This document shows positions 2,441 to 11,036 of a stretch of 22,773 nt of DNA, in pieces. Made by a program: the position numbers and the translations under genes. The notes below the pieces were generated by a model that saw only the letters and a program-made list of their open reading frames with translations, had not been told where the DNA came from and did no database searches. Each line of letters starts with the position of its first letter. Within the stretch, counting starts at the first letter, position 1. Source of the DNA: a virus; UHGV virus genome UHGV-0256221; one strand, 5' to 3'.

Positions 2441-3535
2441 TTAGTTCGCGTATTCCGGTTTCATGTCGTCGAGGGTGATACGGAACTGGTCATACAGTTC
2501 GTCGCCCAGGTGGCGGCGCGCCGCGGTAAGCGCTGATTCGGCCTTCGCAAACAGTTCTGCCGCGTCTGGTTCGCCGGGATTAGGCAGAGAGTTAATCGCC
2601 GCCTCGACTTTGTTGCGGTGATCCACCAGGTAGTAACGCTTAACGGCTTTGTTCTTCAGTTCGGTGAACAGTGCGGTACCCAGCAGCGCTTTCTGAGATT
2701 CGATATCCGCACGGATGGCTTTGGCCTGGTCGACGGAGCTGGCAGCTTCAATGCGATCACGAAGTTCGCCGGCTACATTGTCCGCGTTTGTTACCGATTG
2801 CTGATCGCAGCTGGCTGTAGTCACCGTCTCCCCAGTAATTTCGGTAACGCTCATTCGCTGTGGCGCTGGATTGATTTCCCGCTCTGGCTTGTCCTCAATC
2901 TCATCAGCGCTGTAAACGCCAAGAATTACATCTGGGCAATACAGTCGCGCCCAGCGCTTGACTGCGAGATATGCGAGTTGTTGACGGGGATCACTTGCCC
3001 AAAGTGTTGAGTTACGGACCTGAGCCTGAGATAGCATGAGCACCAACTCGCGTGGTTCATCCTCACCTTTCATAGTTGCCCATACTCGAATCCCAACGCC
3101 TGCTTCATCCTTTAAATCCCAGCCAGGGGCGATGTATTCATTCCCTTTGCCGCTGGTTTTCTTAATGAAGCGTCCAACGATATTTTCCCATTTCCCAAAC
3201 CAGTCATAATGAATACGGTCTTTCGTTGGGGACATGTTGGTAATAACCGCGTTGACCAACTGAGCCTCATACCCTAGGACTCCGCTATTGCCTACAATAT
3301 GAGTCTTCTGCGCGACTGCGAACGGGTCCATTCCCCAGCGGGCTGCCTGCATAACTACGGCCATACATGCGTCAGGCTTCTCGCGGAAATGACTCGGAAC
3401 GAATGCGCCGCTATTTGCCATCACGACTGATAATGTGCGCAGGCGGTCAAATAACTCGCCATTTGTTAAAATGGAGATGTTGTCGATCATTTGCGTCTTG
3501 TTTTCTGTGGTCGAAATTGCTGTAGACATGTTCAT
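2441..3535 (-). CDS. recT: RecT-family single-strand annealing recombinase
   Basis: 364 aa, recognised as RecT-like; immediately downstream of the recE-like gene with a 6-bp gap, as in Rac recE-recT. Confidence 0.8.
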   Translation of the reverse strand: MNMSTAISTTENKTQMIDNISILTNGELFDRLRTLSVVMANSGAFVPSHFREKPDACMAVVMQAARWGMDPFAVAQKTHIVGNSGVLGYEAQLVNAVITNMSPTKDRIHYDWFGKWENIVGRFIKKTSGKGNEYIAPGWDLKDEAGVGIRVWATMKGEDEPRELVLMLSQAQVRNSTLWASDPRQQLAYLAVKRWARLYCPDVILGVYSADEIEDKPEREINPAPQRMSVTEITGETVTTASCDQQSVTNADNVAGELRDRIEAASSVDQAKAIRADIESQKALLGTALFTELKNKAVKRYYLVDHRNKVEAAINSLPNPGEPDAAELFAKAESALTAARRHLGDELYDQFRITLDDMKPEYAN

Positions 3536-3541
3536 TTCCCC

Positions 3542-6500
3542 TTATGCCAAACGCAGCGCTTCAAGGCGGCGCATATCGAAATCATTCAGTTCGTCGGTGT
3601 AGTCGGCGGTGATCGGCGCTGGCCACTCACCCGTATCAAATCCGGTTGCGATGGCTCGCATGGCATTTCGATACTCGAGCATGCCCAGTTCCAGCAGTTC
3701 AGTGGACGCTTCAATAATGGCGATCCAGTGGTAGTTCTCGTCTTTGTTGACGAAAATCCAGAAGAACTGGTCAAGCGCTGCCGTCTCGCAGTACATGGCC
3801 GCGCTTAGGTGATAATCGCGGTCGATGATTTCGCGGTGTAACTTGGCGCGCAGACCTTCCTGTTTGATGTTCCACATGCTGATGGTTTTCAGGTCGGCAC
3901 CGATGCGCACACCGTCCAGGTCGATTTCCAGATCCGGACGTACACGGACTTCCAGCCCGGTTTCGTCGTCGAACCCGAAATAACTCACTTCTACAGCGCG
4001 GTTCGGGTGCGTTAGCAGCTTGCCGGCGGTCGGGTGCTGGAGCAGAGCTTTCTGGATATTCAGCGCGGTACTTAGCTGCTGGCGGGTGACCAGTACTTTT
4101 CCTTCAGGATTCTCGCGCCATGCATCGATAAGTTCGTCGGCAAATACAGCACCCGGGTTTACTGCCTTCACGGCCTGAATCAGATCTGCCTTCGTGCCGG
4201 ATACTTTCAGTGGCTGCGGCTTCTGCGCTTCCTGCGCGACCAGATCAGGATTGATGATTGCCAGTTGCTCAAGCAGCGAGTCGCGGCTACCGCTGGTTTT
4301 TACCGGCGCAGGCTTATTGGATTCTTCCTCTACCAAATCGGCGTTGATGACCGCCAGTTGCTCCAACAGCGCGTCGCGGCTGCCGCTGGTTTTCACTTGA
4401 GCGGGCAGGGTAGCGTTGTACTCTTTGATGCATGCTTTCATGGCAGCAGCAGTGAAGTTTTTTTCGTCGCCAACAATCCGCTTAAACTCAGCAGGCAATT
4501 CGAGATACGCCAGACCGATCGCGTCTTTATCGCCGCCTAAAGGCACTTGAGCGGGCAGGGTAGCGTTGTGCGCTTCCAGTAGCGCTTTGATATCGTCAGC
4601 AGATAGCGGCGCTGGCAGGCTAGTGTTGTACTCTTCCAGTAACGCTTTGATATCTTCGACTGACAGCAGCGCCTGCAGGCTGGCATTGTATTCATCGATA
4701 AACGCGCGGATCGTTGCGGTTGTCGTGAATGCGCCTTCCGGGATTTCTGGCTCAACGCTGAATTCAGCATCCAGTTGCTCAGGTTGCAGCGCCAGTGCAT
4801 GTACCAGGTTCCCCATATCCAGAACCGGAGAGCGTTCCTTCGTGATGGTCTTCTCAACATGGCGCGCATTGAAGTACATCAGGCTCACGCGAGCATCTTT
4901 AACCTGGGTGCTGCTGATACCGTTGGCGGCGTGATATACCTCGTTTGGTAAACCTTCATAACGGCCAGGCTCGAAGAATGCCGGGTACTCGATGGCTGGT
5001 TCTGCCTGCAGGTCTTCCGGCTCGCTGGCTGTTTCCATCGGCACTAATTCCTGTGCTGTGTCGTCTGCCGGAATCGGCGCTTCAGTTGTCAGAGTTTCCT
5101 GCTTGTTGGTGTCATGCTCCTGCGTGTCCAGTTCTTCTTTCAAACCGGATTCCATCGCTGCATATGTTGCATCACCCATCACAGCACCGCAGTCCTGGCA
5201 ATGCCCGCCACCAATAGCGCCGCATCCGGTACACACGGTTTCCGTTACGGTATCTGCCTGCGAATCATCTTCCACAGTACCTTCGCCTGCTGGTAACGCA
5301 GCGCTATTTTCGGCTTGGGGTTGCTCAGTCGTTTCCATCTGGCCATTGTTGGTGGTCTCGCTTTTGTTGCCGTAAAGTTTTGAGTTCGCCATCAAACCCT
5401 CAACCGAAAAGATGCCACCGCCAACGTTGGTGACTTCAGGCTGTTTAGTAGATGTCAGGTCTTCGCGCACCCACTTCGGATCTTCCGGGTCGCTGATTCC
5501 ATCAACAAATTCCCCGCGCTCCGCTGCGAGTGTGTCACTGATTTCCTTATCCCAGCTTTGTGCAGGGTTATGGCGAGCAGCCTTCAATGTTTCATCAGAA
5601 GGTTTTTCGTGGTTGCTTTCTGTCAGGTTAGCGTTGATGTATCCACTGAGACGGCCGGGATACTGGTAATGCTCTGGGTGGCACTCCCTGATCAGCGCGA
5701 AAATGGCTGCGCGGGAGTAATCGAGTATTCCGGCACGTTTGCGAAGAGCTGCTGACCATTCTTTGAAAGGGCTTTCTTTTTTGCTGACGATCTCTTTCGC
5801 CCGACGATAAACACCACCAGGAATGTCGTAGATGTTAAAGTCCATCGGTAGTGTGGCGAGTGCAATTTCAATGTCTAATGAGTCCAGCGTGTGGGTTAAC
5901 TCAGGGTTACGGTCGGTTTTATTGCCGCCGCCTGCGTTTGTGCCTACGTCAGTTCGTGTAACCGACTGTTTATCCAGCGTCGCCTTATTATGTTTTGCGA
6001 ACCACTTCGCCGTTACATCGTCGCGGGAAACGCGATCGCTCTGATGTGTATTGATCCATTCTGCAAAGAAGGTGATCAGGTCATTGAGCATCGGAGCTTT
6101 ACCGTCCACCGGCCAGATTGATTTTGTGGCCGTAAACAGGTCGGCCAGTGTTTCCGGGAACACGTGTTCAATAGGGCGAGTTTTGAAATCACGCGCGGAC
6201 AGCAATACGTTCTGTGCGTATGTTTCATCCATATCCAGCTCTACACGCGTAATCTCCTGCAACTGCTCAGTAGTCAGCGTATCGAAAAGACCGTACAGCC
6301 AGGTGCCGAGTACTTTTTTCTCATATGGAAATTTGCCGTAGGCGAACAGGTCAACAGCTTCCTTCTCTGTTTCTTGCGTAGTGGTTACTGCGTGCGCATC
6401 GGTAGACGCGGTGGCATCGGCGGCAGCCGCTGGTGTGCTTTCATTGTGAAATGCATCATCAGGCTTGCTGCCTGGCTTCAGTTGCCAGGTGCGCATGTCT

Positions 6501-6748
6501 TCCGCCAGCTCATAGCGTTCGCACCAGGTCAAATCAACGGTGCTTTCTTCCGGGAGGTCATTAAATACGGGAAAATCAGTGCGGATCGGCTTCTGATAAT
6601 CTTTACCGCGTCCGGTCTCGATATTCGCATCTTCCAGTTCAACATCGAGCTGGAGATTGGCGCGAGCTTCGGTTTTTGCCGTGAACCAGACGACTGCGTC
6701 TGGCTTGCCGGATTTCTGAGTGGCTTTAACCACGTAGAAGAATTCCAT
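3542..6748 (-). CDS. recE: RecE-like exonuclease VIII (large multidomain, C-terminal nuclease domain)
   Basis: 1068 aa; C-terminal region resembles the RecE PD-(D/E)xK nuclease domain; central acidic linker with tandem repeats and a Cys4 cluster; GAGGA RBS upstream of the ATG at 6748. Confidence 0.7.
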   Translation of the reverse strand: MEFFYVVKATQKSGKPDAVVWFTAKTEARANLQLDVELEDANIETGRGKDYQKPIRTDFPVFNDLPEESTVDLTWCERYELAEDMRTWQLKPGSKPDDAFHNESTPAAAADATASTDAHAVTTTQETEKEAVDLFAYGKFPYEKKVLGTWLYGLFDTLTTEQLQEITRVELDMDETYAQNVLLSARDFKTRPIEHVFPETLADLFTATKSIWPVDGKAPMLNDLITFFAEWINTHQSDRVSRDDVTAKWFAKHNKATLDKQSVTRTDVGTNAGGGNKTDRNPELTHTLDSLDIEIALATLPMDFNIYDIPGGVYRRAKEIVSKKESPFKEWSAALRKRAGILDYSRAAIFALIRECHPEHYQYPGRLSGYINANLTESNHEKPSDETLKAARHNPAQSWDKEISDTLAAERGEFVDGISDPEDPKWVREDLTSTKQPEVTNVGGGIFSVEGLMANSKLYGNKSETTNNGQMETTEQPQAENSAALPAGEGTVEDDSQADTVTETVCTGCGAIGGGHCQDCGAVMGDATYAAMESGLKEELDTQEHDTNKQETLTTEAPIPADDTAQELVPMETASEPEDLQAEPAIEYPAFFEPGRYEGLPNEVYHAANGISSTQVKDARVSLMYFNARHVEKTITKERSPVLDMGNLVHALALQPEQLDAEFSVEPEIPEGAFTTTATIRAFIDEYNASLQALLSVEDIKALLEEYNTSLPAPLSADDIKALLEAHNATLPAQVPLGGDKDAIGLAYLELPAEFKRIVGDEKNFTAAAMKACIKEYNATLPAQVKTSGSRDALLEQLAVINADLVEEESNKPAPVKTSGSRDSLLEQLAIINPDLVAQEAQKPQPLKVSGTKADLIQAVKAVNPGAVFADELIDAWRENPEGKVLVTRQQLSTALNIQKALLQHPTAGKLLTHPNRAVEVSYFGFDDETGLEVRVRPDLEIDLDGVRIGADLKTISMWNIKQEGLRAKLHREIIDRDYHLSAAMYCETAALDQFFWIFVNKDENYHWIAIIEASTELLELGMLEYRNAMRAIATGFDTGEWPAPITADYTDELNDFDMRRLEALRLA
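4240..4720. repeat. Degenerate in-frame tandem repeats (about 60 and 90 bp units) inside recE
   Basis: Near-identical DNA blocks such as gccagttgctc(a/c)a(g/a)cagcg(a/c)gtcgcggct(a/g)ccgctggtttt and cacttgagcgggcagggtagcgttgt occur twice or more; encode repeated LPAQV / SGSRD(A/S)LLEQLA(V/I)IN peptide units. Confidence 0.7.
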
Positions 6749-6879: not shown

Positions 6880-7377
6880 TTATAAATTTCTGGCGAATAA
6901 GCCGTGATTTGCTTCGCGGAAGTCTTTTATTGCTTCCGCTGCCTTTTCTAATTCAACAAAATTTCCTACCGTGTATCTTTTCCCATCAACGCGACAGATG
7001 GCTCTCCAGCGCTGCTTACCCTTGTGCCAGTACACGCCTTTCACTCCGCTTGTGTTGTTCTTCTGGAGTGACTTGTTGAAGTTGTTCTGCGAACAAGTTG
7101 CTTCGCGCAGATTCTTCAATCGGTTGTCAGAGCACTTCCCATTTACATGGTCAATCTGGTCTTCAGGCCATTTACCATGTACGTAGAACCAGGCCAGGCG
7201 GTGTGCGCGATACTTTTTCCCATCAATGATGATTCGAATGTATCCGCGTGAATCAAGATGACCTGCAACTTCACCTGCGGCAACGCGACCACGTTTTTCT
7301 AACCAGGTAAAATCACCTGTTTCCGGTGAGTAGCTGAGTAATTCTTTCAGGCGCTCAAGTGGTAACTTCTCGCTCAT
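6880..7377 (-). CDS. HNH endonuclease with AP2-like DNA-binding domain
   Basis: ORF 6880..7425; HNH-type motif (IDHVNGKCSDNRLKNLREAT) plus AP2-like segment (KGVYWHKGKQRWRA). Start refined to ATG at 7377 (MSEKLPLERL). Confidence 0.65.
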   Translation of the reverse strand: MSEKLPLERLKELLSYSPETGDFTWLEKRGRVAAGEVAGHLDSRGYIRIIIDGKKYRAHRLAWFYVHGKWPEDQIDHVNGKCSDNRLKNLREATCSQNNFNKSLQKNNTSGVKGVYWHKGKQRWRAICRVDGKRYTVGNFVELEKAAEAIKDFREANHGLFARNL

Positions 7378-7388
7378 ATCCGTCACCG

Positions 7389-7550
7389 TTAGCCTTCGTG
7401 AGCCATCTGGTCGAACGAAGCGCAACGTACTGAACAGTAATCACGTTGCTCGCGTTTCAACTGCGTGCCGTGGATAAAGAGCAGTTCGTTTTTAACTTCC
7501 TTCCCTTGCTTGATCGGCTTGCGGCAGTACGCGCATTTTTTCTCCTGCAT
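7389..7550 (-). CDS. Small zinc-ribbon protein (53 aa), not in the ORF track
   Basis: Hand translation: MQEKKCAYCRKPIKQGKEVKNELLFIHGTQLKREQRDYCSVRCASFDQMAHEG; CxxC ... CxxxC; GGAG RBS upstream; stop 12 bp before the HNH start. Position like Rac ydaE, homology unverified. Confidence 0.4.
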   Translation of the reverse strand: MQEKKCAYCRKPIKQGKEVKNELLFIHGTQLKREQRDYCSVRCASFDQMAHEG

Positions 7551-7561
7551 AACTCACTCCG

Positions 7562-7927
7562 TTAATGGCTAAGGCCATGTCCTAAACCGTTTAGATAAAC
7601 CTCAACCAGCAAATCTTTGGTGTAGGTACGTTCGATGCCACGGTGAAGATACAGGCGTCCGCGAGCGTTAGCTGATGCCGTCCAGGTTGAGTCTTTGTGT
7701 TTGACGAGCATCCCCGGCTGAACTGCGCCGCGGTTTACTGTCTGTGTACCGTAGTGCTGATGAACCATGATGTTCTCCACTATTGCTGAGTGAACTTCGC
7801 TGGTGGTGCCGTGGTGCTGATCTTCACAGTTGAGCGTTTTAACTCTGCAGTTCACCACCGCGAAACCCACTCTTATGTGCCTGTCTTTTATCCACTTCAG
7901 GCTCGGTGGTATGCTGGTAGTTCTCAC
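7562..7927 (-). CDS. Hypothetical protein, early-left operon
   Basis: 121-aa ORF with GTG start; true start may be the internal ATG (MVHQHYG...). No recognisable motif. Confidence 0.35.
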   Translation of the reverse strand: MRTTSIPPSLKWIKDRHIRVGFAVVNCRVKTLNCEDQHHGTTSEVHSAIVENIMVHQHYGTQTVNRGAVQPGMLVKHKDSTWTASANARGRLYLHRGIERTYTKDLLVEVYLNGLGHGLSH

Positions 7928-7947
7928 ACAGCCAGCAAGGAATAACT

Positions 7948-8241
7948 ATGAAATCAGTAACTAAGCCATGTCCTATTTGTGGTGAAGATTCTTTGTCTTT
8001 TAACCAGACAAATCAGTTGGTTAACATCAAAGTAAAACCACCAACTATTCGTGAAGTTCCATCAGTGGTTTACGTTTGCGATACTCACGGATGGTTTTCA
8101 CTTTCAGAACAGATAAACAGACTCGTCACATCTAATGACGACCCTGCGGCTAAGCAAAAACTGGCTGTTATTGTCAAAGAGCGATATGTGCCGGAACAGG
8201 ATCAGCCGTTAGCCCTGAAACCTATTGAGTCGCTCGCATAA
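7948..8241 (+). CDS. Zinc-ribbon protein encoded antisense to the early-left operon
   Basis: 97 aa; AAGGAA RBS 5 nt before ATG; CPICG ... VCDTHG (C-x2-C ... C-x2-H); candidate extended -10 (TGgTATGCT) about 35 bp upstream; 3' end overlaps the convergent N-like gene by 20 bp. Confidence 0.45.
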   Translation: MKSVTKPCPICGEDSLSFNQTNQLVNIKVKPPTIREVPSVVYVCDTHGWFSLSEQINRLVTSNDDPAAKQKLAVIVKERYVPEQDQPLALKPIESLA

Positions 8242-8491
8242 GGTCTTTTCGGCTCTCGCTGCGATATCCCAGGCGGTACATTTTCACGTAGGCTTTGCCG
8301 CGAGGAATGCCGCCTGTTTTGTTGAATCTCTGCTGGGCGCGGCGATGGTGTTTTGCTTCAGGGCTGTTTGAACCTTTCCCGCCATTCGATCGAGAACTTG
8401 GGAGTTGCATTGGCTTTTGGCGTGAATAGAATTTACGTGCCCAGCATGCTCCAAAGCCGATCATGCCTGTTTTCTTCGTATTACCTTTCAT
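8222..8491 (-). CDS. Small Arg/Lys-rich protein, first gene after the putative PL; N-like antiterminator candidate
   Basis: 89 aa, highly basic and low complexity; GAGGGG RBS; positional analogy to lambda N only. Confidence 0.3.
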   Translation of the reverse strand: MKGNTKKTGMIGFGACWARKFYSRQKPMQLPSSRSNGGKGSNSPEAKHHRRAQQRFNKTGGIPRGKAYVKMYRLGYRSESRKDLMRATQ

Positions 8492-8570
8492 CTCAATCCC
8501 CTCGTTTGCCCTTGTCGCCAGGCCAGCGGAACGTTTGAACTTGATGCGCTTAGTGTTTCTCGATGGGGTG

Positions 8571-8612
8571 ATGATAGCTAAGGCGATTTATTTTATCAAT
8601 CGCTTAAACGAT
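8571..8612 (-). promoter_or_regulatory. Putative PL promoter with OL operator half-sites
   Basis: Leftward strand: -35 TTGATA, 17-bp spacer, -10 TATCAT; overlaps ATAGC-N4-GCGAT and ATCGC-N4-ACGAT elements matching the OR repeats. Confidence 0.4.
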
Positions 8613-8936
8613 AATATTGTGATTTTGCCGATTATTATTTGATTTATAAAGTGATTTATTTTTGTATGAGATGCGTGATATGCTCAAAAAAACACCAGGC
8701 GGGGATATTGATATGGGTTTAGGAATGGATATGTCACGTGATGAGCTGCTGGAAGATCGCGCTGCTTTCATGGCTGGCGAGATTGGCGGTGCAGTTGTCG
8801 AGTAGATAATCAACGGTGTGGTGATAAGTCGAGATGCGATAGTAGATAGCTTGGAGACTAAGCGTCGCGCGGTTGGAAATGTGATTCACAAAGGAGTGTT
8901 GTGGGATGTCACTGCTATGGTGAGAAAAGGAATATG

Positions 8937-8970
8937 AAAACCGGCATAATGCCGGTTTACTTTGATTTTT
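8937..8970. terminator. Bidirectional intrinsic terminator at the end of the repressor-linked operon
   Basis: AAAACCGGC-ATAAT-GCCGGTTT hairpin with T-runs on both strands; overlaps the stop codon of the 210-aa gene. Confidence 0.55.
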
Positions 8971-9589
8971 CCTGTTGGTGAAGTACTCGTGGAGTAGTTG
9001 GTTCTTGAGGTAATTGGATGATAACAGGTTGCTGCGCTACTGGTTGAACTACGGGCGGATCACTCTTCAAGGCAGAAACAAGACTAGGTAATGCAACGAC
9101 AACCGCAATGATAACGCCAAAAATAGCAAGCCTAGTGGAAATACCTGATTGAATACCGCCAATCGCAGTGTTTATTCCTGTAATTTGCCCTTGTATACCT
9201 TCGAATTTGCCATTGATGGCTTTTACATCCCCATCAACGCTATCCATTTTCCCTTCAATTTTAGAAGAAATAGAGCTAATAGATGAATTGAGCGATGCCA
9301 GCTGAACGTTCATATTCTCGCGTGACAAAGCCATTTCAGCTCTAATCGAAGATGCAATGGACTCCATCTCCGCCTTATTGGCAGCTAGAAGTGCTTGCAT
9401 TTCTTCACGGCTAACTGATGACATTTCATTTCCCCCATCAGTTTCATTAGCTTCATCTGTTGATTTGATAAAGTTAGTATACATTTCTTCTTTATCGACG
9501 CGTAGTCTGTTTTGAACATTGGGGTACAGGTCATCTTTATCAATGCCAGAACCGCAGTCTGGGACAGCTTTGAGAGATGGGCCCATCAC
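8957..9589 (-). CDS. Tail-anchored coiled-coil membrane protein (candidate exclusion / abortive-infection effector)
   Basis: 210 aa; long heptad-like Ser/Ala/Glu-rich region, single C-terminal hydrophobic helix (LAIFGVIIAVVVALPSLVSAL), Pro/Gln-rich tail; start overlaps the upstream stop (ATGA); AT-rich. Confidence 0.55.
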   Translation of the reverse strand: MMGPSLKAVPDCGSGIDKDDLYPNVQNRLRVDKEEMYTNFIKSTDEANETDGGNEMSSVSREEMQALLAANKAEMESIASSIRAEMALSRENMNVQLASLNSSISSISSKIEGKMDSVDGDVKAINGKFEGIQGQITGINTAIGGIQSGISTRLAIFGVIIAVVVALPSLVSALKSDPPVVQPVAQQPVIIQLPQEPTTPRVLHQQEKSK

Positions 9590-9948
9590 TTCCCATCCTC
9601 TCCTTGATCTTCTTTTCTTTTATTAATCAGTGTCCTGGCTTTTTTATAAGAAAAAAGCAGTACATGTGCGCAGTGATCACACGTGATTCGAAATAGTGGC
9701 ATACCGCCAGGATATGTCACAGCACTATCAGTATCAGGTTTGTATTGTGCATAACTAAGTGTTTCGATCACATGATGTTTTGGCTGATTTTCTTCTACAT
9801 CAAGATCAAAGGCACCAACTACAGACCATGACTGGTTCCCGCAGATTTGGCAAGTTATTGGTTTTTTGAATGAATTTATGAAATCAATGAACTCATCCGC
9901 TGTGATAATCTCGGAGTTTGCTTCACTATGAAATAATTCCGATTTCAT
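9586..9948 (-). CDS. Zinc-ribbon protein, first gene downstream of the repressor gene
   Basis: ORF 9586..9972 (TTG); likely ATG at 9948 (MKSELFH) with AAGGA RBS; CQICG ... CDHCAH; only 44 bp after the repressor stop, no terminator between; AT-rich. Confidence 0.5.
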   Translation of the reverse strand: MKSELFHSEANSEIITADEFIDFINSFKKPITCQICGNQSWSVVGAFDLDVEENQPKHHVIETLSYAQYKPDTDSAVTYPGGMPLFRITCDHCAHVLLFSYKKARTLINKRKEDQGEDGK

Positions 9949-9992
9949 AATTATGATCCTTTTTTGGGCCAAAGTAGATAAAAAGTACAGTT

Positions 9993-10676
9993 TTACAATC
10001 GGTTATACTTTATTGATTCATGAATCAATGCCTTACCCATTACGTAGAGTTGATCCTGATTACCTTCGTTAATGTACCACTTCTCATAAGCTGAGTTATC
10101 AGACAAAACTGCCAACCTATCGCCCTGCATCTGCAAGCGCTTCACATGGAAATGTTGTCCGAAAACGAACGCATAAACACCGTCGACCTTGAAGTTTCTT
10201 ACAGAAATATCGAAAAACAATCTGTCACCAGACTGTATAGTTGGACACATGCTGTCGCCATCGACCGTCATTACTTTTACGTCTTCCTGAGAACGATTTC
10301 CGAAGAGTGAACGAGCGTGTTCGGTTGTGAACTCAATGGCGTGTAGAACCTCAACAAACTCAGAAATCATGAAAGAACCTGGCCCCGCGCTAAATGTCAG
10401 GTCAAGTACGTCAACTCTGAATATGTTTGAGTCTTTTTTTGTCGCGGTAATGGGAGGCGGTAGCTGGCCATCGTTACGCATCGGTCCGGATCCCGTGGAA
10501 AGCCATTCAGGGCGAACATTGAGAACAGAAGCTATCTCGACCGTTTTTCTTGAGCTTGATGCACCATTTAGCAGCTTGTTAACACTTGACTGTGCCATGC
10601 CAACTGCCTTAGCTAGCTTGCCCTGTGTATAACCCGCCTCATTCATTGCGCGATCTAATCGCTCAGAAAAACTCAT
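9993..10676 (-). CDS. CI-like repressor (N-terminal HTH, C-terminal S24 LexA-like peptidase domain)
   Basis: 227 aa; HTH (YTQGKLAKAVGMAQSSVNKLL); S24 motifs (GDSMCPT, KR); divergent from the cro-like gene across an operator-rich region. Confidence 0.85.
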   Translation of the reverse strand: MSFSERLDRAMNEAGYTQGKLAKAVGMAQSSVNKLLNGASSSRKTVEIASVLNVRPEWLSTGSGPMRNDGQLPPPITATKKDSNIFRVDVLDLTFSAGPGSFMISEFVEVLHAIEFTTEHARSLFGNRSQEDVKVMTVDGDSMCPTIQSGDRLFFDISVRNFKVDGVYAFVFGQHFHVKRLQMQGDRLAVLSDNSAYEKWYINEGNQDQLYVMGKALIHESIKYNRL

Positions 10677-10707: not shown

Positions 10708-10778
10708 TTATCGCCACAGCGATTAATAAGCAAAAAATCGCATAGGCGATTGACATTCGTTAAAGCGATAAACATAAT
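10708..10778. promoter_or_regulatory. OR operator cluster with PR (and presumed divergent PRM)
   Basis: Three ATCGC-N4-GCGAT elements (about 10710-10723, 10737-10750, weaker 10756-10769); PR -35 TTGACA (10750-10755), 17-bp spacer, -10 CATAAT (10773-10778). Confidence 0.6.
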
Positions 10779-10805
10779 CAACCTAAATTGATAGAAGGAG
10801 CGATT

Positions 10806-11036
10806 ATGAAAAACCCTGCTGTAGAAAAAGCGATTGCAATCGCCGGTAGTCAGAAAGAGCTAGCGAAGCGATGTGGTAAGGCCCAATCCACGGTCTGTGA
10901 CTGGTTAAATGGGAAAAAACAAATCTCCCCGATCCATGTTCCTGTTTTGGTAAAGGCAAGCGAAGGACAGATTCAAGCTCATGAATTCCGTCCCGACCTT
11001 CCTGAATTGTTTCCGCATCCACATTCAGCCGCCTGA
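10806..11036 (+). CDS. Cro-like / YdaS-family HTH regulator
   Basis: ORF 10788..11036; ATG at 10806 with GAAGGAG RBS; small HTH protein (SQKELAKRCGKAQSTVCDWLNG) transcribed from PR. Confidence 0.7.
   Translation: MKNPAVEKAIAIAGSQKELAKRCGKAQSTVCDWLNGKKQISPIHVPVLVKASEGQIQAHEFRPDLPELFPHPHSAA

What the first reader, a model, noticed from the sequence alone, without database searches (positions are those of the whole stretch)
7928..8260. Antisense-oriented zinc-ribbon gene inside the early-left operon, convergent with the N-like gene
The 7948..8241 ORF lies on the plus strand within an otherwise leftward operon. It has a strong RBS (AAGGAA, 5-nt spacing) and a plausible extended -10 (TGgTATGCT, about 7907-7915) embedded in the upstream minus-strand gene, and its 3' end overlaps the N-like gene by 20 bp. 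The geometry implies expression when PL is repressed and transcriptional collision with PL readthrough on induction. The CPICG ... VCDTHG arrangement resembles the YgiT/MqsA-type zinc ribbon of some antitoxins.
Basis: partly seen in the sequence, partly recalled or inferred. Interest (0 to 1): 0.6.

Follow-up and report, generated by a model that had tools for sequence, protein, structure and literature searches.

The report
Small zinc-ribbon gene in sieB slot
A real 97-residue zinc-ribbon gene sits backwards in the early-left operon of a Rac-like prophage, in the position and behind the same regulatory DNA that phages lambda and P22 use for their exclusion gene sieB, so the layout is a known one and only the gene (function unknown) is new.

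Summary
The ORF at 7948-8241(+) is a genuine gene. It has a conserved length and dN/dS of 0.10-0.29, every other frame is full of stops, and the AlphaFold model scores pLDDT 91.

Its geometry is not unusual. It is the classic sieB slot of lambdoid phages: lambda sieB(+)/N(-), P22 sieB/24 and K-12 Rac sieB/ydaF.

The 35 bp upstream of the ORF are 94% identical to lambda and P22 DNA just upstream of PsieB. They correspond to the 3' double hairpin of the P22 sas antisense RNA, and one stem covaries across phages. The proposed extended -10 (TGGTATGCT) is conserved in all Rac-like relatives. It lies in intergenic DNA, because kil really starts at 7768.

In every one of 20 distinct loci examined (23 fetched), including relatives of only about 30% identity, ORF97 is paired with the convergent, overlapping 89-aa gene. 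That protein is very basic (pI 11.5) and predicted to be disordered. It is the first gene after an operator-bearing PL-like promoter. It shows no homology to N, and no nut sites were found.

The MqsA/YgiT resemblance is not supported: hhalign probability is 1.6%, there is no HTH domain, and no fold match appeared.

Other phages carry unrelated cargo behind the same promoter. Verdict: a new cargo gene in a known prophage accessory slot, biochemical function unknown.

The parts
7562..7768 (-). kil (septation inhibitor) at its likely true extent. The 7769-7927 GTG extension is probably not coding.
   Evidence: PHROG 294 (Kil) matches residues 48-120 of the 121-aa ORF. PGAP annotates a 68-aa CDS at the equivalent position in L001 and L002.
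7874..8500 (.). About 627 bp, present in the window and in L001 but absent from the otherwise near-identical E. coli prophage L002. It holds the sas-like block, ORF97, ORF89 and the ORF89 RBS.
   Evidence: Three-way alignment. L002 keeps the PL leader up to about 8503, so it is a deletion derivative rather than an empty site.
7879..7936 (-). sas-like double hairpin, the 3' domain of the P22 sas antisense RNA. Hairpin 2 is GCCTG 7879-7883 / CAGGC 7898-7902. Hairpin 1 is TGCTGG 7912-7917 / CCAGCA 7931-7936.
   Evidence: Window 7876-7910 is 94% identical to lambda 34394-34428 and P22 29650-29684, and 140 phage records match. The published P22 sas RNA sequence ends with this element (PMC13397905). 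The hairpin 1 stem covaries: UGCUGG/CCAGCA, UACUGG/CCAGUA, UGCUU/AAGCA, CCUUUUA/UAAAAGG, UUCUCG/CGAGAA. The hairpin 2 stem is GCCCGG/CCGGGC in K-12 Rac.
7907..7915 (+). Candidate extended -10 promoter element TGgTATGCT for ORF97. The -35 is poor (TTTATC, 7887-7892).
   Evidence: Invariant in all 18 distinct ORF97 loci. It is kept as TGGTATACT or TGGTATCCT in Rac-like phages with other cargo, and is absent from lambda and P22. The generic scan did not flag it. It has not been tested experimentally.
7937..7942 (+). Shine-Dalgarno sequence AAGGAA, 5 nt before the ATG.
   Evidence: Read directly from the sequence. CAGCAAGG is conserved in all loci.
7948..8241 (+). ORF97: a 97-aa protein with a Cys8/Cys11/Cys44/His47 zinc-ribbon-like beta-hairpin domain followed by two short helices. 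PHROG 31519, function unknown.
8222..8241 (.). 20-nt 3'-3' overlap of ORF97 and ORF89. It codes for both proteins at once (…IESLA* on one strand, …RATQ* on the other).
   Evidence: The overlap is 20 nt in most loci and 68 nt where the ORF89 stop is displaced.
8222..8491 (-). ORF89: an 89-aa, very basic (pI 11.5) protein predicted to be mostly disordered. It is the first gene of the leftward early operon. PHROG 29236, function unknown.
   Evidence: pLDDT 58; dN/dS 0.10-0.25.
8510..8535 (-). Conserved PL-leader motif AACGTTCCGCTGGCCTGGCGACAAGG, which includes a small GC-rich hairpin. There is one copy in the window.
   Evidence: Conserved upstream of ORF89 in all loci. A related motif lies upstream of rac11 in Rac-SA53. 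It is unique in the window.
8571..8612 (-). PL-like promoter, TTGATA-17-TATCAT (8599..8571). An operator-like palindrome, ATCGCTTAAACGAT (8599-8612), overlaps it.
   Evidence: The promoter scan scores it 10/12. The palindrome matches ATCGC-N4-GCGAT sites between the cI-like and cro-like genes, at 10710-10723 and 10737-10750.

Best explanation
ORF97 is a genuine accessory ('moron') gene. It is transcribed rightward and sits in the sieB slot of a Rac-like lambdoid prophage, between kil and the first gene of the PL operon. It has replaced sieB inside the same regulatory scaffold.

Shown:
- The gene is under purifying selection and folds confidently into a zinc-ribbon-like beta domain plus helices.
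- Its upstream DNA is homologous to the region upstream of lambda and P22 sieB, and to the 3' double hairpin of the P22 sas antisense RNA.
- PL upstream of ORF89 carries an operator-like site that matches the PR operators.
- Other phages carry unrelated genes behind the same promoter and leader.

Inferred:
- In the lysogen PL is repressed, and ORF97 is transcribed from the conserved extended -10 promoter TGGTATGCT, with a start near 7922.
- No terminator separates the two genes. On induction or superinfection, leftward transcription from PL (or a sas-like RNA ending at 7879-7936) runs antisense through ORF97 and its RBS and shuts it down. This is what sas does to sieB.
- By analogy with sieB and other antisense prophage morons, the protein most probably acts in the lysogen. 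It may work as a superinfection-exclusion or phage-interference factor, or as a modulator of its ever-present partner ORF89. Its biochemical target is unknown.
For: - Real gene.
- Same geometry as lambda sieB/N, P22 sieB/24 with a mapped PsieB and start site, and K-12 Rac sieB/ydaF.
- The upstream block is 94% identical to lambda and P22 and is found in 140 phage records. It equals the 3' end of the P22 sas RNA as sequenced (PMC13397905).
- Hairpin covariation.
- TGGTATnCT is conserved in all Rac-like loci even where the overlapping stem sequence differs.
- Cargo is swapped behind the same promoter and leader in Rac-SA53 (rac10/rac11), Klebsiella phage 5 LV-2017 (a 76-aa CxxC..CxxC ORF), pAEv1818 and 720R4.
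- Presence/absence polymorphism: L002, and only 2 of 5426 E. coli genomes carry the pair.
- PL-like promoter with an operator.
- Orientation antisense to lytic genes is described as typical of expressed prophage accessory loci (PMC7067206).
- GC content is lower (41-42%) than in the flanks.
Against: - No transcript or protein data exist for this locus.
- The promoter has a weak -35, the generic scan missed it, and the bare motif is common.
- Part of the -10 lies inside hairpin 1. Its G-to-A variant comes with a compensatory change on the other arm. Some of the conservation may therefore serve the RNA or DNA hairpin rather than the promoter.
- In P22 the mapped PsieB lies to the right of the block, where the ORF97 RBS and ATG now sit. 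The promoter here would therefore be a different one from PsieB.
- ORF97 has no similarity to SieB, to any PADLOC defence model or to any solved or viral structure. The proposed exclusion function rests on position alone.
Confidence: 0.55

Rival explanations
1. ORF97 and ORF89 form a two-component neutralisation pair, similar to a toxin/antitoxin system. The basic, disordered ORF89 would be harmful or strongly active when made from PL. ORF97, made constitutively, would bind or counteract it, or its convergent transcript would silence leaky ORF89 mRNA.
For: - The two genes are strictly paired in all 20 distinct loci examined (23 fetched), including relatives of only about 30% identity (P0055, P0057), whose partners still begin MKGNTKK….
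- Both genes are lost together in L002.
- Their properties are complementary: pI 6.6 against 11.5, folded against disordered.
- The 3' overlap guarantees RNA-RNA complementarity.
Against: - Neither protein matches any Pfam, NCBIfam-type, PADLOC or toxin-antitoxin family.
- MqsA homology was tested and rejected.
- The genes are convergent, not co-transcribed.
- ORF89 lies behind a repressed PL, so a lysogen would not need an antidote.
- Physical overlap alone explains co-inheritance.
- ORF89 stays 71-78% identical where ORF97 has dropped to 34-42% (L016-L019). That is not the pattern expected for a tightly co-evolving binding pair.
- Other phages carry different convergent pairs in the same slot, so the pairing may simply reflect how the slot is built.
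Confidence: 0.2
2. ORF89 is an analogue of the N antiterminator: first PL gene, basic and disordered. It would be needed to read through the sas-type hairpins into kil-ydaE-recET. ORF97 would be unrelated cargo that happens to abut it, as sieB abuts N in lambda.
For: - Its position is identical to that of lambda N and P22 gp24.
- It has a high pI and a low pLDDT, as expected for an N-like protein.
- The PL leader carries a conserved GC hairpin.
- P22 sas transcripts end at the homologous block, so the block can stop unmodified leftward transcription.
- The L002 deletion removes ORF89 and the block together.
Against: - There is no similarity to lambda N or P22 gp24.
- The N-terminus is not arginine-rich.
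- There is no boxA, and the leader motif has no second copy downstream of cro. Only 31 nt separate the cro-like and ydaT-like genes.
- The terminator-like hairpin inside ORF97 (8141-8123) is not conserved.
- The same leader motif precedes the unrelated rac11 in Rac-SA53.
- Most Rac-like prophages lack ORF89.
Confidence: 0.15
3. The conserved block upstream of ORF97 is only a mosaic-junction or recombination linker of lambdoid phages with no regulatory role here. ORF97 would then be expressed, if at all, by read-through from elsewhere.
For: - The block sits exactly at module boundaries. Its left neighbours differ (ral/orf28, kil) and so do its right neighbours.
- Sequence to the left of the block is unrelated between loci.
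Against: - Compensatory changes in both stems point to selection on structure, not only on sequence identity.
- In P22 the element is part of an expressed, functional RNA.
- There is no plus-strand gene or promoter to the left from which read-through could come. kil, ydaE and recE are all on the minus strand.
Confidence: 0.1

Closest known systems
sieB/esc/sas locus of phages P22 and lambda (also sieB of the K-12 Rac prophage)
   Same: - A rightward gene is wedged into the leftward early operon and converges on the first PL gene (N, gp24 or ydaF).
- The upstream DNA is homologous, including the 3' double hairpin of the sas antisense RNA.
- The gene is expected to be expressed from the prophage.
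   Different: - ORF97 is a 97-aa soluble zinc-ribbon-like protein with no similarity to the 160-190-aa hydrophobic SieB.
- It has no internal esc-type start.
- The mapped PsieB -35/-10 is replaced by the RBS and ATG, and a different extended -10 lies further left.
- Exclusion activity has not been tested.
Prophage 'moron'/accessory loci encoded antisense to lytic genes (e.g. STMMW_20121 of ST64B; concept in PMC7067206)
   Same: - It is small, points against the surrounding lytic operon and has lower GC content.
- It shows presence/absence polymorphism and cargo swapping at a fixed site.
   Different: It has no terminator of its own. It overlaps its neighbour by 20 nt and always travels with that neighbour.
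MqsA (YgiT) antitoxin
   Same: Only a CxxC … Cxx(C/H) zinc-binding arrangement at the N-terminus.
   Different: - No detectable homology: Pfam shows nothing and hhalign probability is 1.6%.
- No XRE-HTH domain.
- The partner gene is convergent and unrelated to MqsR.
- MqsA is absent from the fold-search hits.
Lambda N / P22 gp24 antiterminators (for the partner ORF89)
   Same: It is the first gene after an operator-controlled PL. It is small, very basic and predicted to be disordered.
   Different: - No sequence similarity, no N-terminal arginine-rich motif and no boxA/boxB pair on both arms.
- It is dispensable in a closely related prophage.

Membership tests
MqsA/YgiT antitoxin | N-terminal zinc-ribbon domain homologous to MqsA | tested here: not met
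MqsA/YgiT antitoxin | C-terminal XRE-type helix-turn-helix DNA-binding domain | tested here: not met
   There is no HTH Pfam hit. The AF2 model has only two short helices, at 54-62 and 66-78.
MqsA/YgiT antitoxin | Co-transcribed MqsR-type toxin gene next to it | tested here: not met
   The only constant neighbour is convergent and matches no Pfam or PADLOC family.
SieB superinfection exclusion protein | Sequence homology to SieB of lambda, P22 or Rac | tested here: not met
   hhalign probability is 0.6% or less against lambda, P22 and K-12 SieB.
sieB-type locus (architecture, not protein family) | Rightward gene between kil/ral and the first PL gene, convergent with that gene | tested here: met
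   Window layout compared with lambda, P22 and K-12 Rac.
sieB-type locus (architecture, not protein family) | Upstream regulatory DNA homologous to the sieB/sas region | tested here: met
   33 of 35 nt are identical to lambda and P22. The element coincides with the 3' end of the P22 sas RNA. The stems covary.
sieB-type locus (architecture, not protein family) | Expression from the prophage and exclusion of superinfecting phage | not testable with these tools
   Needs transcript mapping and plating assays.
Lambda N-type antiterminator (ORF89) | First gene downstream of repressor-controlled PL | tested here: met
   A 10/12 promoter lies at 8599..8571. An operator-like palindrome shared with the PR region overlaps it.
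Lambda N-type antiterminator (ORF89) | nut sites (boxA plus boxB hairpin) on both the PL and PR transcripts | tested here: not met
   The conserved leader motif occurs once in the window. No boxA-like sequence was seen in the leader. Only 31 nt separate the cro-like and ydaT-like genes.
Lambda N-type antiterminator (ORF89) | Sequence similarity to N proteins / N-terminal arginine-rich motif | tested here: not met
   hhalign probability is 0.3% or less against lambda N and P22 gp24. The N-terminus MKGNTKKTG is lysine-poor to moderate and is not an arginine-rich motif.
Zinc ribbon | Two knuckles at beta-hairpin turns supplying four ligands | tested here: inconclusive
   C8/C11 lie between strands 4-7 and 14-26. 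C44/H47 lie between strands 33-44 and 48-53. All four are invariant in the close family, but H47 is Asp in distant relatives. Metal binding was not tested.
Prophage moron | Own promoter and own terminator flanking the gene | tested here: inconclusive
   A conserved extended -10 is present but untested. There is no terminator, because the gene overlaps ORF89.

The most novel reading that the evidence does not exclude
Probability: 0.08. Interest if true: 0.7.

Novelty: new member of a known kind. Interest (0 to 1): 0.35.

Why it matters
The sieB slot turns out to be a shared expression socket in lambda-, P22- and Rac-like phages. It has a conserved sas-type double hairpin and a promoter/leader, and unrelated small genes are plugged in behind them. 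This gives a simple sequence handle (the 35-nt block) for harvesting prophage accessory genes that are likely to be expressed in lysogens, and so for finding candidate exclusion or defence factors. ORF97 and its obligate partner ORF89 are one such pair. Both belong to narrow, uncharacterised families with no structural relatives, so a phenotype for them would define a new small-protein function. The architecture itself is textbook.

Tried and rejected
- **MqsA/YgiT homology.** Rejected.
- **Lar/restriction-alleviation hit.** E = 0.03, covering the CPICG knuckle only and far below the cut-off. Not meaningful.
- **Relation to the other zinc-ribbon ORF of the window (9586-9972, PHROG 4293).** Only the 11-residue knuckle aligns, at probability 7%.
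- **Defence-system models (PADLOC).** No hit for either protein.
- **Exhaustive HMM search of 1.84 billion representatives.** It found only 4 clusters of 95-97 aa plus one spurious repeat protein. No distant annotated relatives can be reached.
- **tblastn of ORF97 against 50,697 phage records.** No match.
- **tL1-like terminator inside ORF97 on the minus strand (8141-8123).** Present in the window but not conserved in homologues.
- **Rfam.** No family matches in 7300-9200.
- **RNAalifold on the MAFFT alignment of the sas-like region.** The lambda-type hairpin 1 was misaligned by 2 columns. I therefore tabulated stems per sequence with RNAfold and did not quote covariation statistics.
- **'Mobile insertion cassette' reading of the L002 indel.** Rejected. 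L002 keeps the ORF89 leader, so it is a deletion.
- **A Psas-like minus-strand promoter inside the ORF97 5' codons.** None recognisable (plus inspection).

Full report
**1. Context**

The window is a Rac-like lambdoid prophage. Reading rightwards it holds:
- recE, 3542-6748 (-)
- an HNH endonuclease ORF, 6880-7425 (-)
- ydaE, 7389-7550 (-)
- kil, 7562-7768 (-)
- ORF97, 7948-8241 (+)
- ORF89, 8222-8491 (-)
- an AT-rich control region
- two minus-strand genes, 8957-9589 and 9586-9972
- a LexA/cI-type repressor, 9993-10676 (-)
- a cro/ydaS-like gene, 10788-11036 (+), followed by ydaT-like and replication genes

A 97%-identical E. coli prophage (NZ_LT883142, L001) has both ORF97 and ORF89 annotated as hypothetical proteins.

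**2.

The ORF, the AAGGAA RBS with 5-nt spacing, TGGTATGCT at 7907-7915, the 20-nt 3' overlap and the CPICG/VCDTHG motifs are all present.

The gene is real.
- The 5.8-billion-protein search found 22 clusters, all from Enterobacteriaceae. They are 57-97% identical and nearly all 97 aa long, with C8, C11, C44, H47, GWF and the C-terminal IESL invariant.
- Pairwise dN/dS in the annotated frame is 0.10-0.29. The other five frames carry 4-12 stops each. The low value in frame -1 is the usual mirror-frame artefact.
- AlphaFold2 gives pLDDT 91. The model has four strands (4-7, 14-26, 33-44, 48-53) and helices at 54-62 and 66-78. The Cys/His ligands sit at the two hairpin turns.

That is not met, so the plus-strand gene stands.

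One correction is needed. The 'upstream minus-strand gene' that supposedly contains the promoter is a GTG-extended mechanical ORF. The Kil family matches only its last 73 residues, and PGAP starts kil at the equivalent of 7768. The promoter region is therefore intergenic.

**3. The geometry is the sieB slot**

- In lambda, sieB (+, 34482-35036) abuts N (-, 35037-35438).
- In P22, sieB/esc (+) faces gene 24 (-). A mapped PsieB and start site are annotated there.
- In K-12 Rac, sieB (+) overlaps ydaF (-) by 4 nt, directly to the right of kilR and the kilS sRNA.

ORF97/ORF89 has exactly this arrangement.

**4. The upstream DNA is sieB/sas regulatory DNA**

All 18 distinct ORF97 loci share an almost invariant block, GCCTGTCTTTTAnCCACnTCAGGCTCGGTGGTATGCTGG. 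This holds even where the coding sequence is only 34-42% identical and where the left flank is unrelated.

BLAST showed that window 7876-7910 is 94% identical to lambda 34394-34428. A search of the phage collection found the block in 140 records, including P22 (29650-29684), HK620, Stx phages and Klebsiella phages.

In P22 the block ends 6 nt before the annotated PsieB. The P22 sas antisense RNA, as sequenced from infected cells, ends …GAGAACCACCGAGCCUGACGUGGUUAAAAGACAGGCACAAUCUUUACUACCGC. That is the block read on the minus strand (PMC13397905).

On that strand two hairpins form.
- **Hairpin 2:** GCCUG/CAGGC, which becomes GCCCGG/CCGGGC in K-12 Rac.
- **Hairpin 1:** its stem sequence changes completely between lineages while the pairing is kept. 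The variants are UGCUGG/CCAGCA (window), UACUGG/CCAGUA (Rac-SA53, L027), UGCUU/AAGCA (L030), CCUUUUA/UAAAAGG (720R4) and UUCUCG/CGAGAA (lambda, P22, HK620).

I take this as good comparative evidence for a structured sas-type element at 7879-7936 (-). It is complementary to the ORF97 leader. No Rfam family covers it.

**5. The promoter**

By alignment, the PsieB -35 and -10 of lambda and P22 correspond to GGTAGT and GAATAA in the window. A start from there would fall inside ORF97, so PsieB itself cannot serve this gene.

The Rac-like lineages instead carry TGGTAT(G/A/C)CT immediately after GGTGG. It is invariant in the ORF97 loci and is kept even where the hairpin 1 stem is different.

It is a plausible extended -10 promoter, but it is unproven.
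- The -35 matches only 3 of 6 positions.
- The generic scan missed it.
- The bare motif occurs at the chance rate.
- Its 3' half is also stem sequence, so selection on the hairpin is a confounder.

**6. PL and ORF89**

A 10/12 promoter lies on the minus strand at 8599..8571. The palindrome ATCGCTTAAACGAT overlaps it. That palindrome matches two ATCGC-N4-GCGAT sites between the repressor and cro-like genes. ORF89 is therefore the first gene of a repressor-controlled leftward operon.

ORF89 is a real gene.
- It forms 32 clusters.
- dN/dS is 0.10-0.25.
- MKGNTKK, LPSSR and GGIPRGK are invariant or nearly so, and YRLGYRSESRKD is largely conserved.
- Its pI is 11.5, and its predicted structure is poorly ordered (pLDDT 58).

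It is N-like only in these general respects. It shows no similarity to lambda N or P22 gp24. No boxA was seen, the conserved leader motif has no second copy, and there is no room for a nutR/tR1 after cro. The same leader motif precedes the unrelated rac11 gene in Rac-SA53.

**7. Linkage of the two genes**

In every locus examined (20 distinct, 23 fetched), an ORF97-type gene and an ORF89-type gene are convergent and overlapping. This includes the most distant relatives found by the exhaustive HMM search. P0055 and P0057 are about 30% identical, and their partners still begin MKGNTKK/MKGNTKE.

E. coli NZ_AP021894 (L002) has the same prophage backbone but lacks 7874-8500. That stretch is the block, both genes and the ORF89 RBS. 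L002 keeps the PL leader, so it is a deletion.

ORF89 diverges more slowly than ORF97: 71-78% against 34-42% identity in L016-L019. The linkage could be functional. It could also be the trivial result of a 20-nt overlap.

**8. The slot takes other cargo**

Behind the same block, -10 and leader:
- Rac-SA53 has rac10(+)/rac11(-).
- Klebsiella phage 5 LV-2017 has an unannotated 76-aa CxxC…CxxC ORF.
- pAEv1818 has gp19/gp20.
- 720R4 has an 81-aa ORF.

None of these is related to ORF97 or ORF89. Only 2 of 5426 complete E. coli genomes carry the pair.

**9. What ORF97 is not**

- Pfam, PADLOC and the PDB sequence search gave nothing.
- hhalign against MqsA gave probability 1.6%.
- In distant relatives His47 is Asp, so zinc binding itself still needs testing.

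**10. Conclusion**

The finding is a correct reading of a real gene, and its regulatory logic is sound. That logic is already known from sieB/sas.

What is new is modest. ORF97 is an uncharacterised zinc-ribbon-like protein family with an obligate basic partner. It occupies a slot that uses a widely conserved sas-type element and, across lambdoid phages, accepts many different small genes.

I commit to the following model at about 55% confidence: a lysogen-expressed accessory gene in the sieB slot, silenced on induction by convergent PL/sas-type transcription. The exclusion or partner-modulating function is inferred from position only.

Noticed in passing
window 7879-7936 (-); lambda 34394-34428; P22 29650-29684; L022 about 6560-6600: A double-hairpin element of about 35-60 nt, equal to the 3' end of the P22 sas RNA. 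It is conserved in 140 phage records across lambda-, P22- and Rac-like phages, with compensatory stem changes. Rfam has no family for it. It could serve as a marker for the sieB-type accessory slot.
   Followed up: yes
window 7989-8001 (+) versus 7882-7894 (+): The 13-mer TGTCTTTTAACCA from the upstream block recurs exactly inside ORF97 (codons 15-19). This holds in the window, L003, L004 and L006-L009, but not in more divergent homologues. It may be chance, a duplication or a second binding site.
   Followed up: partly
window 6880-7425 (-): An HNH endonuclease ORF with an AP2-like domain (PF13392, E = 4e-14) lies between recE and ydaE and overlaps the start of ydaE. The otherwise similar E. 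coli prophage L001 has only about 140 nt there. It is probably a homing-endonuclease-type insertion.
   Followed up: no
window 8662-8937 (+), promoter-like TGATATGCT at 8676-8684, hairpin terminator at 8938-8958: A plus-strand stretch with very strong GC skew (+0.3 to +0.45) lies between PL and a bidirectional-looking terminator. PGAP calls it a pseudogene with an internal stop in related E. coli. It looks like a decayed second rightward accessory gene.
   Followed up: no
window 8957-9972 (-): Two genes lie directly downstream of the cI-like repressor, in the position of rexAB. One is a 128-aa CxxC…CxxC protein (PHROG 4293). The other is a 210-aa protein that looks coiled-coil or membrane-associated (PHROG 5820). 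In related prophages the same position holds HipA-like, DUF6414, protein kinase, BstA_C, ASCH or SDH-protease genes. It is therefore a defence-type hotspot.
   Followed up: partly
L003, L004, L011-L013, L016, L017, L021: about 60-110 nt upstream of the ORF89 start (not in the window): Many relatives carry an extra hairpin in the PL leader with compensatory changes (CCGG…CCGG, CCGAC…GTCGG, CCCGG…CCGGG), embedded in conserved sequence (…CACGAAGTAGC…GCATACGAA…GATGAGGTGGAGAG…). It may be a cis-acting RNA element of the early-left transcript.
   Followed up: no
L025 (Klebsiella phage 5 LV-2017, KY271399.1) 2572-2802 (+): An unannotated 76-aa CxxC…CxxC ORF sits behind the same block, -10 and leader as ORF97. 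It is a second, unrelated small zinc-ribbon protein in the same slot.
   Followed up: partly
window 8599-8612, 10710-10723, 10737-10750: Operator-like palindromes ATCGC-N4-GCGAT are shared by the PL-like and PR regions. They are probably the binding sites of the 227-aa LexA-family repressor.
   Followed up: partly
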